This document shows positions 6,001 through 9,000 of a stretch of DNA of 17,283 nt, one piece after another. The position numbers are program-made. The first letter of the stretch is position 1, and the number at the start of each line of letters is the position of its first letter. This DNA comes from a virus (lineage: Duplodnaviria > Heunggongvirae > Uroviricota > Caudoviricetes): the IMG/VR virus record IMGVR_UViG_2548877009_000010, positions 1 to 17,283 of that record; one strand, 5' to 3'.

Positions 6001-9000
6001 CGAGCTGAACACAAGAGAGTCCTGAGGTATTTGTCATATAATCACTCCAACTTGCTGCCTGCTGAAGTGATAGTAGCGGAACCCTTTTTACCGGCGGCAA
6101 AGATAGATCACTATATTCACTTATATTTAACACACCTCCATTAAGAAGCCAGTTTTCACTTACTTTCAAGATCTTGGCGAGAGAGCTTATGTAACGAGCG
6201 GATGGAGTACCTCCACCGTTTATCCACTGACTGACAGAGCCCTTTGATGCGCCTGTAGCGATGGCAAGGTGCTTTCCCTTCAGATTTAGCGCGTTCATGC
6301 GCTGAGTGATGCGTTCAGATATTGTTTGCTTAGTCATGTTTTGATTTTAAAACACTAGAGGTTTTGTTTCTTGACTTTCTTTTGTTTTGATTATTAAACT
6401 TTGTTTGTTCAGTTTTCTGGAGTGAACTATGAAAAAATCAGAAGTTTTAGGATATTTTGGCGGTGTTGTTAAAACAGCATCAGCGCTAGGAACTTCGAAA
6501 ACCACAGTCAGCATGTGGGGAGAGAATGTTCCGTGGAAATGGGCGTTGCTTATTCAGGCTGTTACTGATGGCGCACTTAAGTATGAGTTGCATGTACCAA
6601 CGGTTACCATTCCATGTGTTGATTGTAAGTCACTTTCAGATCAGGGAGTTGATTCATGAAAATCACGCATGAACATATCCGCATGGCGATGAATGCGTGG
6701 CTGCTTTATCCGAGGGTAGGGCGCAAAAAAATCGCTGATGATATAGCGACAGCATATTTTGAGCTTGAAATGACTTATCCACTAATGCATGACACCTCTA
6801 CGACAGAGGGTATTGGATTGAACATACAAAATATTTTTCGCTGGCTTGAAAAGGATACGCCTGATGCTGTTGAAAAAATTCAGGCACTAATTCCGGCTAT
6901 CCTGACTGTTCTTCCGCGTGAACTGCGTTATCACCTCAGTATTTTTGACACTGTTGAGCGCCGTGCATTACTGGCGGCGCAGGAAGCGTTGAGCACGGCA
7001 ATTGATGCACATGATGATGCAGTCCAGGCCGTTTACCGGAAAGCGTATTTCAGCGACAGCGGGTCATCCGGCGAGTCTGTTGTGGTGCATTGATATTTAT
7101 GCCAGACCCCTGCTGATTCTGTTGATTGGGGAATCACAGAATATCACCAGAGGATGGTTCGTCACAAGATGAGGCAATTATGGCCGCATTACCATACATG
7201 CAACTGTACATAGCTGATTACTTGGCTGACACCATGCATTTGTCCGCAGAGGAGCACGGCGCGTATTTGTTGTTGATGTTCAATTACTGGCAAACAGGGA
7301 AACCAATACCTAAAAACAGGCTGGCAAAAATTTCCCGTCTGACTAACGAGCGATGGGCTGATGTGGAACCATCCTTGCGGGAGTTTTTTTGCGATAACGG
7401 CGATGAATGGGTGCATCTTCGGATTGAGGAAGATCTGGCATCAGTCAGGGAAAAATTAACCAAAAAATCAGCCGCCGGAAAAGCATCTGTTCAGGCCAGA
7501 AGAAGCAGAAAGGAAGCATATGTTCAAACAAAACAAGAGAGAGATTTAACAGGCGTTCAAACAAATGTTGGTGTTGTGTTTGAATATGACGCAAACACAA
7601 AAGCAACTAATAAAGATACAGATCTAAAAGAATTAAACCCCACACATAACGTGCGTGAACGCGAGAGTATTCCGACCAGTGAGTCGCATGGTGCGCTGTT
7701 GCAGACAGCCGAACCTGAATACCTGGACGGCCTGAGCGAACCGATCGGGAAATTTTCGATGACTACTGTCTGGCAGCCGTCGCCGGATTTTCGACAACGG
7801 GCAGCAGTGTGGGGTATGGCTCTGCCTGAGCCGGAATTTACACCTGCAGAGCTTGCCGCATTCCGGGATTACTGGATGGCGGAGGGGAAGATTTTCACGC
7901 AGGTTCAGTGGGAGCAGAAATTTGCCCGCCACGTGCGGCACGTCAGGGCACAGGTAAAACCAGTCAGCAAGGGGGGAAGTCATGCAGCACCAGGTGGCAC
8001 CGCATCACGGGCAGTTCAGGAAATCCGGGCTGCACGCGAACAGTGGGAACGTGAAAACGGATTTATCAGCAACGGAAACGGCCTGGAAGCTGTGGGAGCT
8101 TATGGGGGAGGTGTATTCGAACCGCTGGACTCAGAAGAACGGGGCCGCACCTTCGAAGCTCTGGATTGCCCAGATTGGTGCGATGACTGAACAGCAAATC
8201 CGTCTGGTCTGCCGTCAGTGCATGGACCGCTGCCGGGCGGGTGAAACGTGGCCCCCGGACCTGGCTGAGTTTGTTGCACTGATTTCGGAGAGTGGGGCAA
8301 ATCCATTTGGTCTTACGGTGGATGCCGTGATGGAAGAGTACCGGCGCTGGCGCAATGAATCCTGGCGATACGACGGGAGTGATAAATACCCGTGGCCACA
8401 GCCTGTGCTGTACCACATCTGCCTCGAAATGCGTACCAGAGGGATTGAGCGCCAGATGACGCAGGGTGAGTTAAAACGACTTGCGGAACGGCAACTGACG
8501 AAATGGGCAAAGCATGTTGGTAACGGGATGAGTGTTCCGCCAGTGCGACGACAACTGGAAGGGGCGAAACACCCGAAAGGGCCAACGCCAATTGAACGGC
8601 TGAAACAGGAATACGAACGCCGGAAGGCTGCTGGTTTTATTTGAATCTGGGAAACGATTTTGTCGGAGGAAATTTTAATGGAAACCGTATTTGACGCACT
8701 GAAAGCACTGAAAAGAGCCTCTTCACAGGTAGTGGCGGCCCGCCTTGGAATCAGCCGTGAAGATGCGGTCAACGAACTGTGGAAACTGAAGCGCCGTGGT
8801 GAAGCGGATAACAAGGGGTCGATGTGGTGGCTGACTCAGGCAGGTGAAAGTGAACCAGTGTCACCGGTACCGAAAGTGACAGCGCAAATGCTGACTGAGG
8901 CGATTGAACAACATGGCCCACAAACGGCGGATGAGCTGGCACTGATGTTCGGGATTACCTCCCGCCGGGCGAATTCATCGCTGGCCATGGCAATCAGCAA

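What the first reader, a model, noticed from the sequence alone, without database searches (positions are those of the whole stretch)
7982..8190. 209-nt out-of-frame overlap between the DUF1376 initiator and the P-like gene
The P-like ORF's best start (ATG 7982, G-rich SD) lies 209 nt inside the upstream initiator gene, and the similarity to lambda P appears to begin within the overlap. Either both frames are coding, a rare long overlap, or one boundary is wrong (later P start at 8102/8183, or the initiator's C-terminal tail is not translated).
Basis: seen in the sequence. Interest (0 to 1): 0.45.

Follow-up and report, generated by a model that had tools for sequence, protein, structure and literature searches.

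The report
Real overlap between initiator and loader genes
In this E. coli prophage the gene for the helicase loader (a relative of lambda P) starts about 209 bases inside the upstream replication-initiator gene, in another reading frame; related phages from E. coli to Vibrio keep this arrangement, and reference genome annotation cuts the loader about 67 residues short.

Summary
The initiator (7180..8190; DUF1376 plus DnaT domain) and the P-like ORF (7982..8644) overlap by 209 nt, with P in the +1 frame.

The overlap is real rather than a boundary error:
- In about 120 related loci, both frames stay open wherever this P clade follows an initiator. The overlap is 149-224 nt and always +1. The one exception is an assembly riddled with frameshifts.
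- The ATG at 7982 and a strong Shine-Dalgarno site are conserved (mean -9.1 kcal/mol). The start used by RefSeq, 8183, has -3.1.
- P-frame residues upstream of 8183 (AWxLWExMGEIYSNRWxxKNG) are conserved down to about 36% identity.
- In 66 distinct E. coli-clade sequences, third-codon-position variation follows the initiator frame up to about nt 8068. It follows the P frame from about nt 8084.
- Synonymous diversity is 31-52% lower inside the overlap than in the flanks.
- In AlphaFold models, the ordered segment of one protein lies opposite a disordered segment of the other.
- Initiators with at least three identifiable N-terminal domain types, plus unclassified ones, share the overlapped C-terminal tail.

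RefSeq calls a 153-aa P in all 11 E. coli loci inspected, which truncates the protein. This is a solid new example of a known kind of overlap. Translation itself was not tested.

The parts
7180..8190 (+). Replication initiator gene (336 aa; YdaU-like). DUF1376 domain nt 7192-7440, disordered AT-rich linker, DnaT DNA-binding domain nt 7753-7953, then linker, helix and acidic tail.
   Evidence: Pfam. RefSeq annotates the same boundaries in the 99.7%-identical genome. AF2 domain layout.
7969..7979 (+). Shine-Dalgarno site for the P-like gene (AAGGGGGGAAG). In the initiator frame it encodes Lys-Gly-Gly in a disordered linker (aa 260-274).
   Evidence: Sequence. Pairing energy is -11.0 kcal/mol. 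Across 30 loci the mean is -9.1, against -3.7 for other in-frame starts and a background 5th percentile of -7.0. GGAGG is present in most lineages.
7982..8644 (+). P-like helicase-loader gene, long form (220 aa), +1 frame relative to the initiator.
   Evidence: The ATG is conserved at this position in all 41 tabulated loci, and the long frame is intact in 80/80 viral contigs. The top structural matches are lambda P in DnaB complexes.
7982..8068 (+). 5' half of the overlap, dominated by the initiator frame. It encodes initiator helix aa 277-292 (nt 8008-8055) and, in the P frame, a disordered and unconserved leader of about 29 residues.
   Evidence: Diversity peaks at initiator codon position 3. 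Initiator pN/pS is 0.13 and P-frame pN/pS is 1.28. AF2.
8069..8190 (+). 3' half of the overlap, dominated by the P frame. It encodes P helices aa 30-53 and 59-66 and, in the initiator frame, a disordered acidic tail (aa 296-336, ...GGGVFEPLDSEERGRTFEALDCPDWCDD).
   Evidence: Diversity peaks at P codon position 3 from about 8069-8084 onwards. P pN/pS is 0.04; initiator synonymous diversity drops to 0.019. P K52 is AAG in 20/23 lineages, which keeps Glu in the initiator.
8102..8104 (+). Internal in-frame ATG (M41). Its equivalent is the start of many ~180-aa Salmonella, Citrobacter and Klebsiella database entries. Probably not the main start.
   Evidence: 180-aa entries. SD is -6.1. W35/W38 and A34 upstream of it are conserved. 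M41 is missing in L032.
8183..8185 (+). ATG (M68) used as the P start by RefSeq/PGAP and by GenBank phage records (153-aa product). This call truncates the protein.
   Evidence: SD is -3.1. This start would remove the predicted helices 30-53 and 59-66.
8188..8190 (+). TGA stop codon of the initiator, lying inside P codons 69-70.

Best explanation
This is a real, anciently conserved out-of-frame (+1) gene overlap within a lambdoid (Rac-like) replication module. Both genes are probably read from one rightward early transcript, although only a weak consensus promoter match upstream of this gene block (6371-6400) supports this. Ribosomes translating the initiator continue to its TGA at 8188-8190. 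Other ribosomes start independently at a strong internal Shine-Dalgarno site plus ATG 7982 and make a 220-aa P-like helicase loader. The SD/ATG lies in a Gly-rich disordered linker of the initiator, just after its DnaT domain.

The 209 shared bases are divided between the two proteins. In the first ~90 nt the initiator frame carries the constrained sequence (helix SRAVQEIRAAREQWER), and the P frame yields only a disordered leader that is free to vary. In the last ~120 nt the P frame carries its conserved N-terminal helices (AWKLWELMGEVYSNRWTQKNG...), and the initiator frame yields a disordered acidic tail.

Shown here: both frames are open and conserved, the SD+ATG is conserved, codon periodicity flips between the two halves, and synonymous variation is reduced. 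Inferred: initiation actually occurs at 7982, and the amounts of the two proteins are unknown. Also inferred, by analogy with lambda O C-terminus binding lambda P N-terminus (my recollection of the lambda literature; not checked here): the initiator helix/tail and the P N-terminal domain are the docking partners, and the overlap keeps them genetically linked while origin-binding domains are swapped.
For: (1) Architecture. In 41 tabulated loci, from E. coli to Serratia, Rouxiella, Erwinia and Limnobaculum, P is always +1 and the overlap is 149-224 nt. All 80 viral contigs keep both frames, with 209 or 212 nt of overlap and 35 distinct sequences. Vibrio phages have the same layout, with 194-212 nt.
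(2) Stop codons. There are 0 stops in 2840 +1-frame codons inside the overlaps, against 0.043 per codon elsewhere in the initiators and 0.049 in the third frame. Given only the initiator protein sequence, P(open) is about 0.28 per lineage.
(3) Start site. SD strength at the conserved ATG averages -9.1 kcal/mol, against -3.7 for other in-frame starts and -3.1 for the RefSeq start.
(4) Selection. Across genera, P pN/pS in the 3' half is 0.225, equal to P outside the overlap (0.222), and initiator synonymous divergence falls from 0.66 to 0.13 there. In 66 distinct E. coli-clade sequences, the initiator in the 5' half has pN/pS 0.13 and P in the 3' half has 0.04. Synonymous diversity is 52% lower for the initiator frame and 31% lower for the P frame than in the respective flanks. 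Periodicity flips between nt 8069 and 8084.
(5) Synonymous-shuffle tests. P frame given the initiator protein scores z=42 in the 3' half. Initiator frame given the P protein scores z=10.6 (BLOSUM), against controls of 1.3-3.4. P K52 is AAG in 20/23 lineages against a 36% background (p=5e-7, ignoring phylogeny), which keeps Glu-Glu in the initiator.
(6) Non-overlapping context. Orphan P-like genes in Erwinia, preceded by non-coding AT-rich DNA, still carry the AWxLWDxM..IYxNRW N-terminus.
(7) Structure. AF2 predicts P residues 1-28 disordered and a helix at 30-53. For the initiator it predicts 260-274 disordered, a helix at 277-292, and 296-336 disordered.
(8) Other explanations for the conservation. 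There is no RNA structure (z=-0.2), no Rfam hit and no iterons in the overlap.
Against: There is no experimental evidence for initiation at 7982. The first ~29 P codons show no amino-acid constraint (pN/pS 1.28), so substitution patterns cannot tell a start at 7982 from one anywhere up to about nt 8069. Some lineages have extra ATGs just upstream of the AW motif (+81 to +96), so shorter isoforms or dual initiation are possible. The initiator's last ~35 residues tolerate radical changes (R/W and E/K alternate as by-products of synonymous changes in P), so their function is only weakly supported. In Vibrio phages the SD at the upstream ATG is weak (-3.5 to -5.6). All 11 RefSeq E. coli loci inspected carry the short form. 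The sequences compared are related by descent, so the p-values overstate independence.
Confidence: 0.8

Rival explanations
1. The P boundary is wrong, and P starts at ATG 8183, as RefSeq/PGAP and GenBank annotate it (153 aa). The overlap is then the ordinary 8 nt, and the upstream open frame is accidental.
For: All 11 RefSeq E. coli loci inspected, plus phages Rac-SA53 and vB_Apl-pPE4, carry this call. The direct BLASTP match to lambda P starts only at aa 85.
Against: P-frame codons 34-65 upstream of 8183 have pN/pS 0.04. They are conserved down to 36-50% identity, including in genes with no upstream initiator. The SD at 8183 is weak (-3.1). This start would delete two predicted helices. PGAP itself calls a 180-aa product in Salmonella, Citrobacter and Klebsiella.
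Confidence: 0.03
2. P starts inside the overlap but later than 7982: at ATG 8102 (180-aa form, 89-nt overlap), or at a weak GTG or lineage-specific ATG shortly before nt 8081. The overlap would be real but only about 90-140 nt, and the 7982 ATG would be unused.
For: Many database entries are 180 aa. The first ~29 codons evolve neutrally in the P frame and are predicted disordered. Several lineages have an ATG at +81 to +96.
Against: No alternative start is conserved across lineages. The E. coli clade has none between +72 and +120. M41 is absent in L032, and W35/W38 lie upstream of M41. The 7982-equivalent ATG is the only start with a strong SD. It is present in all 41 loci, often directly after a P-frame stop. 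The frame stays open over the neutral leader in every lineage.
Confidence: 0.12
3. The two frames are joined by programmed +1 ribosomal frameshifting or by slippage at the G6 run (7971-7976), giving an initiator-P fusion protein. The overlap would exist to allow this.
For: PHROG 15931 is a 482-position profile matched by both proteins, as if some phage records carry a fused ORF. A G6 run lies just upstream of the ATG.
Against: The G run is not conserved; most lineages have CCGGAGGTAAC-type sequence. In many loci a P-frame stop lies one codon before the ATG. P has its own strong SD+ATG. No stimulatory RNA structure was found. The one fusion protein inspected (P0106) is an internal deletion, not a frameshift.
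Confidence: 0.03
4. The low variation in 7982-8190 reflects a cis-acting nucleic-acid element (origin iterons, RNA structure or a regulatory site) rather than dual coding.
For: In lambda the origin lies inside gene O (annotation shown). Synonymous diversity is reduced in the overlap.
Against: There are no repeats or iterons in the overlap, no significant RNA fold (z=-0.2) and no Rfam match. The remaining variation has strict 3-nt periodicity that switches frame, which is a coding signature. The AT-rich, inverted-repeat-bearing candidate origin lies elsewhere (7450-7650).
Confidence: 0.02

Closest known systems
Phage lambda O-P replication module (initiator plus DnaB helicase loader)
   Same: The gene order is the same: initiator, then loader, in the early right operon, downstream of a gene that matches PHROG 163 (CII-like activator) and Pfam YdaT. 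The loader matches Pfam Phage_lambda_P, and its best structural matches are lambda P bound to DnaB. As in lambda, the initiator has an exchangeable N-terminal DNA-binding part and a loader-specific C-terminal part: K-12 YdaU has the same N-terminus but another C-half and pairs with a DnaC-like loader.
   Different: Lambda O and P overlap by only 4 nt; here the overlap is 209 nt out of frame. The initiator body here is DUF1376 plus a DnaT domain, not lambda O. Identity to lambda P is about 25% and only in the C-terminal two-thirds.
Overlapped two-component spanin genes (e.g. P2 lysB/lysC; compare embedded lambda Rz/Rz1)
   Same: A downstream gene begins inside the upstream gene in the +1 frame and runs past its end. 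Reported spanin overlaps are of similar size (116-155 bp). The region of the upstream protein encoded in the overlap is variable. Gene callers miss or truncate the second gene because they are biased against overlaps (PMC6139136, read). Both pairs are found in lambdoid phages.
   Different: The function (lysis versus replication) and the proteins are different. In this pair each frame holds a conserved segment opposite a disordered segment of the other.
DopC/DopE pair (domesticated phage initiator with DnaT C-terminal motif plus P-like protein; PMC5509034)
   Same: An O-like or HTH initiator carrying a DnaT C-terminal domain is paired with a Pfam Replication-protein-P homologue.
   Different: That pair is chromosomal and domesticated. 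The paper does not mention an overlap ('overlap' occurs 0 times). I did not examine those loci.
Rac prophage ydaU-ydaV of E. coli K-12
   Same: The neighbourhood is the same (ydaS/ydaT-like genes upstream), and the DUF1376 domain is 94% identical over 148 aa.
   Different: K-12 YdaU lacks the DnaT domain and the tail. YdaV is an IstB/DnaC-type ATPase. The two genes do not overlap: ydaU ends at 1477 and ydaV starts at 1484.

Membership tests
Lambda P-type helicase loader (Pfam PF06992) | Sequence match to the family model above its curated threshold | tested here: met
   58.0 bits against a cut-off of 26, aa 58-187. PHROG 109 'P-like helicase loader' matches at 2e-62. A family profile hits PDB lambda P 8v9t at 1e-6.
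Lambda P-type helicase loader (Pfam PF06992) | Fold like lambda P as seen in DnaB-lambda P complexes | tested here: inconclusive
   The top Foldseek hits are lambda P chains of 9oa1/9oa2/8v9s (prob 1.0, E 8e-5). However, TM is 0.40-0.45 with high rmsd over the full length, and the model has mean pLDDT 70.7.
Lambda P-type helicase loader (Pfam PF06992) | Binds and loads host DnaB; docks on the phage initiator | not testable with these tools
   Needs biochemistry or genetics.
YdaU-like / DnaT-domain phage replication initiator | DUF1376 N-terminal domain and DnaT DNA-binding domain | tested here: met
   PF07120 at 3.6e-26 and PF17948 at 1.7e-17. NCBIfam DnaT matches positions 81-156 only, below the equivalog cut-off, so the protein is not DnaT itself.
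YdaU-like / DnaT-domain phage replication initiator | Acts at an origin; origin located in or near the gene | not tested
   Only a candidate AT-rich segment with inverted repeats at 7450-7650 was seen.
Out-of-frame overlapping gene pair ('overlapped' architecture) | The second ORF starts inside the first, in another frame on the same strand, and ends beyond it | tested here: met
   7180..8190 and 7982..8644, +1 frame.
Out-of-frame overlapping gene pair ('overlapped' architecture) | Both frames kept open with a conserved start signal across diverged homologues | tested here: met
Out-of-frame overlapping gene pair ('overlapped' architecture) | Selection detectable on both frames within the shared bases | tested here: met
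   Each frame is under strong purifying selection in one half (pN/pS 0.13 and 0.04). Synonymous diversity is reduced 31-52%. Shuffle tests exceed controls for both frames. Codon bias in P preserves initiator Glu-Glu. The weaker frame in each half shows little amino-acid constraint.
Out-of-frame overlapping gene pair ('overlapped' architecture) | Both products shown to be translated from the shared region | not testable with these tools
   Needs ribosome profiling or proteomics.
Programmed ribosomal frameshift site | Conserved slippery sequence with a stimulatory element, and no independent start for the downstream frame | tested here: not met
   The G run is not conserved, there is no RNA structure, and the downstream frame has its own conserved SD+ATG.

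The most novel reading that the evidence does not exclude
The overlap may be a recombination-proof docking cassette. On this reading, the initiator's C-terminal helix plus acidic tail and the loader's N-terminal helical domain are the two surfaces that bind each other. Because they are written on the same ~200 bases, they cannot be separated by the recombination that shuffles lambdoid phages. Any origin-binding body (DUF1376, lambda-O type, HTH_36/DnaD_N and others) that is fused upstream would then automatically stay compatible with its loader. This would be a case where gene overlap serves to enforce co-inheritance of an interaction interface rather than to save space.
Probability: 0.3. Interest if true: 0.6.

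Novelty: new member of a known kind. Interest (0 to 1): 0.4.

Why it matters
Three points.

1. Annotation. The P-like loader is called at 153 aa in all 11 RefSeq E. coli loci inspected. Homologous DNA is present in 1265 of 5426 complete E. coli genomes. At about 180 aa in many other Enterobacterales database entries, it is also short. The evidence points to about 220 aa. The short calls remove a conserved N-terminal helical domain, which by analogy with lambda P would be the initiator-docking part. Anyone who expresses or models the annotated protein would work with a truncated molecule.

2. Overlap biology. Conserved same-strand overlaps of about 200 nt are uncommon in bacterial and phage genomes. 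This one shows clearly how two proteins share DNA: constraint passes from one frame to the other at a defined point, and order in one protein lies opposite disorder in the other.

3. Mosaic evolution. The overlap coincides with a mosaic boundary. Initiators with at least three identifiable N-terminal domain types, plus unclassified ones, share this tail. That gives a testable idea about how initiator-loader specificity is kept during modular phage evolution.

Tried and rejected
- RNA-level explanations. I folded 7930-8050 (z=-0.2) and ran an Rfam scan of 7000-9000 (no hits). Rejected.
- Origin or iteron explanation for the conserved overlap. The repeat search found nothing in 7982-8190. Rejected.
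- Internal promoter for P. The consensus scan found none near 7900-7980. This is weak negative evidence.
- Frameshift fusion. The only fused protein I could inspect, P0106, is a deletion product. I could not inspect the members of PHROG 15931.
- Homologue with broken frames. L046 (Leclercia NCTC13032) has both genes split into 3-5 frame segments. It is either a decayed copy or an error-rich assembly, and it says nothing about the overlap.
- A homology search with the 85-aa initiator tail alone returned only partial E. coli proteins and added nothing.
- My first fixed-offset estimate for the initiator-only zone was misaligned by indels. I repeated it with an anchor motif.
- Literature searches on DUF1376, ydaU/ydaV, lambdoid replication protein P and overlapping genes found no description of this overlap. 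The library covers open-access papers only.
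Full report
**1. What is in the window**

The ORF list and the sequence show a + strand ORF from 7126 (TTG) or 7180 (ATG) to the TGA at 8188-8190. A second + strand ORF runs from ATG 7982 to 8644. The two share 7982-8190, which is 209 nt, and the second ORF is +1 relative to the first.

Pfam identifies the first protein as DUF1376 (aa 5-87) plus a DnaT DNA-binding domain (aa 192-258). It identifies the second as Phage_lambda_P (58 bits). PHROGs call them a primosomal/replication initiation protein and a P-like helicase loader.

AAGGGGGG at 7969-7976 lies 5 nt before the ATG. It pairs with the 16S 3' end at -11.0 kcal/mol.

The context is a Rac-like lambdoid prophage of E. 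coli, with a ydaT-like gene upstream and DUF1627 downstream. Homologous DNA is present in 1265 of 5426 complete E. coli genomes.

**2. How others annotate it**

In all 11 RefSeq E. coli loci I opened, and in phages Rac-SA53 and vB_Apl-pPE4, 'replication protein P' is called at 153 aa. That start corresponds to ATG 8183 and overlaps the initiator by 8 nt. Stx2/PPompW phage records aa.

In the protein collection the same family also appears as ~180-aa entries (start equivalent to 8102; Salmonella, Citrobacter, Klebsiella) and as 216-223-aa entries (start equivalent to 7982). Public annotation is therefore inconsistent, and in E. coli RefSeq it takes the 'later start' option.

**3. Comparative anatomy**

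I collected 14 E. coli or phage loci at 85-100% identity. I added 38 loci from one genome per species, 80 viral contigs and Vibrio phage loci.

- Wherever this P clade follows an initiator, P is +1 relative to it. The overlap is 149-224 nt.
- All 80 viral contigs keep both frames, with 209 or 212 nt of overlap. The difference is a 3-nt indel, and there are 35 distinct overlap sequences.
- The only locus with broken frames, Leclercia NCTC13032, has both genes split into 3-5 frame segments. It is uninformative.
- Two Erwinia loci have the P-like gene alone, after AT-rich non-coding DNA. They still encode the N-terminal AWxLWDxM..IYxNRW segment. That segment therefore belongs to P and does not depend on any overlap.
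- More distant P types (lambda, phi80, phiV10) have ordinary 4-nt junctions.

**4. Where P starts**

The P-frame segment AWxLWExMGEIYSNRWxxKNGxxPSxLWIAQIG lies entirely upstream of 8183 and partly upstream of 8102. It is conserved to about 45-50% identity in Enterobacterales and 36-43% in Vibrio phages. W38, W49, K52, N53 and G54 are invariant. This rules out 8183 and argues against 8102. The M41 codon is also absent in some lineages, such as L032.

Upstream of this segment, the one start common to all lineages is the ATG equivalent to 7982.

- Its SD is usually GGAGG, which reads as Gly-Gly in the initiator frame.
- The SD averages -9.1 kcal/mol. Other in-frame starts average -3.7, the RefSeq start has -3.1, and the background 5th percentile is -7.0.
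- In several loci a P-frame stop lies one codon before this ATG.

The +1 frame has 0 stops in 2840 overlap codons. Elsewhere in the same initiator genes the rate is 0.043 per codon, and in the third frame it is 0.049.

When the initiator protein is held fixed and synonymous codons are randomised, P(open) is about 0.28 per locus, and 0.38 for the window alone. One sequence therefore proves nothing, but a dozen or more lineages with saturated synonymous sites do.

**5. Selection in the two frames**

Nei-Gojobori counts on 16 sequences from several genera:

| Zone | pS | pN | pN/pS |
|---|---|---|---|
| Initiator outside the overlap | 0.66 | 0.24 | 0.37 |
| Initiator, 5' half of overlap | 0.48 | 0.26 | 0.55 |
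| Initiator, 3' half of overlap | 0.13 | 0.24 | 1.83 |
| P, 5' half of overlap | 0.38 | 0.33 | 0.86 |
| P, 3' half of overlap | 0.53 | 0.12 | 0.225 |
| P outside the overlap | 0.66 | 0.15 | 0.222 |

In 66 distinct E. coli-clade sequences:

| Zone | pS | pN | pN/pS |
|---|---|---|---|
| Initiator outside the overlap | 0.27 | 0.073 | 0.27 |
| Initiator, 5' half | 0.13 | 0.017 | 0.13 |
| Initiator, 3' half | 0.019 | 0.054 | 2.86 |
| P, 5' half | 0.037 | 0.047 | 1.28 |
| P, 3' half | 0.185 | 0.007 | 0.04 |
| P outside the overlap | 0.268 | 0.027 | 0.10 |

Nucleotide diversity sits at initiator codon position 3 up to about nt 8068. It is mixed in 8069-8083. From 8084 onwards it sits at P codon position 3. 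Diversity at the third-codon ('wobble') positions is 0.104 and 0.114 in the two halves, against 0.195 and 0.180 in the single-coding flanks.

Synonymous-shuffle tests gave the following:

- P frame given the initiator protein, 3' half: z=42.
- P frame given the initiator protein, 5' half: z=13.6.
- Initiator frame given the P protein, 3' half: z=10.7 for identity and 10.6 for BLOSUM.
- Controls outside the overlap: z=3.8-4.4 for identity and 1.3-3.4 for BLOSUM.

A concrete example comes from P's invariant K52-N53-G54, which is read in the initiator frame as E-E-(R/W)-G. The R/W alternation in the initiator is simply the AAC/AAT synonymous change in P. K52, however, is AAG in 20 of 23 lineages, against a 36% AAG background (p=5e-7, ignoring relatedness). 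AAG gives Glu in the initiator where AAA would give Lys.

The initiator tail is therefore mostly a passenger, but its acidic EPLDxEE motif appears to be selected.

**6. Structure**

The AF2 model of the long P has mean pLDDT 70.7. It predicts residues 1-28 disordered, followed by helices at 30-53, 59-66 and 70-85. Starting at M68 would remove two helices.

The best structural matches are lambda P chains in DnaB-lambda P complexes, aligned over nearly their full length, with modest TM scores.

The AF2 model of the initiator has mean pLDDT 60. It predicts:

- the DUF1376 domain at 1-124;
- a disordered linker at 125-176;
- the DnaT domain at 180-258;
- a disordered segment at 260-274, which holds P's SD and ATG;
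- a helix at 277-292;
- a disordered tail at 296-336.

The ordered initiator helix therefore lies opposite P's disordered leader. P's first helix lies opposite the initiator's disordered tail. The switch at about aa 292-296 of the initiator and aa 29-30 of P matches the periodicity flip at about nt 8069. A tendency of overlap-encoded segments to be rich in disorder-promoting residues is noted in PMC6139136, citing Rancurel et al..

**7. The overlap as a module boundary**

Initiators that overlap this P clade carry different N-terminal modules:

- DUF1376 (the window, L032);
- lambda-type Phage_rep_O (L031);
- HTH_36/DnaD_N (L033 and the Vibrio phages);
- several unclassified types (L034, L038, L041, L048).

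All of them end with the same tail, approximately GG..HA...S.A.QQIR.AR..WE...G..A.G..G..L.EPLD.EE(R/W)G...LD..DW.

K-12 Rac YdaU shares the DUF1376 domain at 94% identity. It has a different C-terminal half and pairs, without overlap, with the DnaC-like YdaV. The C-terminal part of the initiator therefore travels with the loader type.

By that analogy, the overlapped segments may be the two docking surfaces. This is inference only.

**8. Rivals**

The later starts (8183, 8102), a frameshift fusion and a cis-acting nucleic-acid element are treated in the rival list.

- The overlap shows no RNA fold, no Rfam family, no iterons and no nearby consensus promoter.
- The G6 run at 7971-7976 is not conserved.
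- PHROG 15931, a 482-position profile matched by both proteins, may be built from fused ORF calls. I could not inspect its members.

**9. What is known, and novelty**

The closest functional system is the lambda O-P module. The closest architectural analogue is the 'overlapped' class of two-component spanin genes. In that class the downstream gene is in the +1 frame, overlaps of 116-155 bp are reported, and gene callers systematically miss or truncate it (PMC6139136).

I found no paper that describes an initiator-loader overlap, although some database entries already carry the long P form. I rate this as a new member of a known kind, and as well supported. It has practical value for annotation and offers a modestly interesting evolutionary hypothesis.

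**10. Limits**

- Translation was not observed.
- The exact start is inferred.
- The sequences share ancestry, so the quoted probabilities are upper bounds on significance.
- The AF2 models are of moderate to low confidence outside the core domains.
- The initiator-loader docking idea is untested.

Noticed in passing
window 7450-7650: An AT-rich stretch (34-38% GC) lies inside the initiator gene, in its predicted disordered linker. It carries inverted repeats (7520-7535/7572-7587 and 7567-7582/7592-7607). This is a candidate phage origin, analogous to ori-lambda inside gene O.
   Followed up: partly
window 7180-8644 (PHROG 15931): A single 482-position PHROG profile of unknown function is matched by the initiator (positions 108-347) and by P (positions 279-482). 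It looks as if it was built from fused or frameshifted ORF calls in some phage records. Its members could not be inspected.
   Followed up: no
L054 620-2230 (E. coli K-12 Rac ydaU-ydaV): K-12 YdaU shares the DUF1376 domain at 94% identity over 148 aa. It then switches to an unrelated C-terminal half and pairs with a DnaC/IstB-type YdaV. This is a clean example of loader-linked module swapping in the same prophage family.
   Followed up: partly
L135 1399-2061 (Vibrio phage D62) and L136 1375-2034 (Vibrio phage D68): The P-like gene is annotated as 'hypothetical protein' with a late start (1735 in D62, 1513 in D68). Homology to the P N-terminal domain begins at about 1501, and the frame is open back to ATGs that give 194-212 nt of overlap with the O-like gene. 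124 Vibrio phage records match.
   Followed up: partly
L046 (Leclercia adecarboxylata NCTC13032, LR590464.1): Both the initiator and the P homologue are split into 3-5 frame segments. This is either a decayed prophage or uncorrected indel errors in the assembly.
   Followed up: partly
protein P0106 (333 aa, from an assembled sequencing run): An internal deletion joins initiator residues up to about 213 (...RRAALWGAALPE) directly to P from about residue 103 (SGANPFGL...). The result is a DUF1376-P fusion ORF in a presumably defective prophage.
   Followed up: partly
window 6656-7093: The gene upstream of the initiator matches both Pfam YdaT_toxin (1e-10) and PHROG 163 'CII-like transcriptional activator' (5e-37). 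The two libraries give it conflicting functional labels.
   Followed up: no
window 8660-9708: The mechanical ORF list shows a 52-nt overlap between the DUF1627 ORF (8660..9394, TTG) and the next ORF (9343..9708, GTG). In the related genome L004, RefSeq starts the DUF1627 gene at the equivalent of ATG 8678 and annotates the following gene (DUF977 family) as non-overlapping. This overlap is therefore probably an artefact of taking the longest ORF.
   Followed up: no
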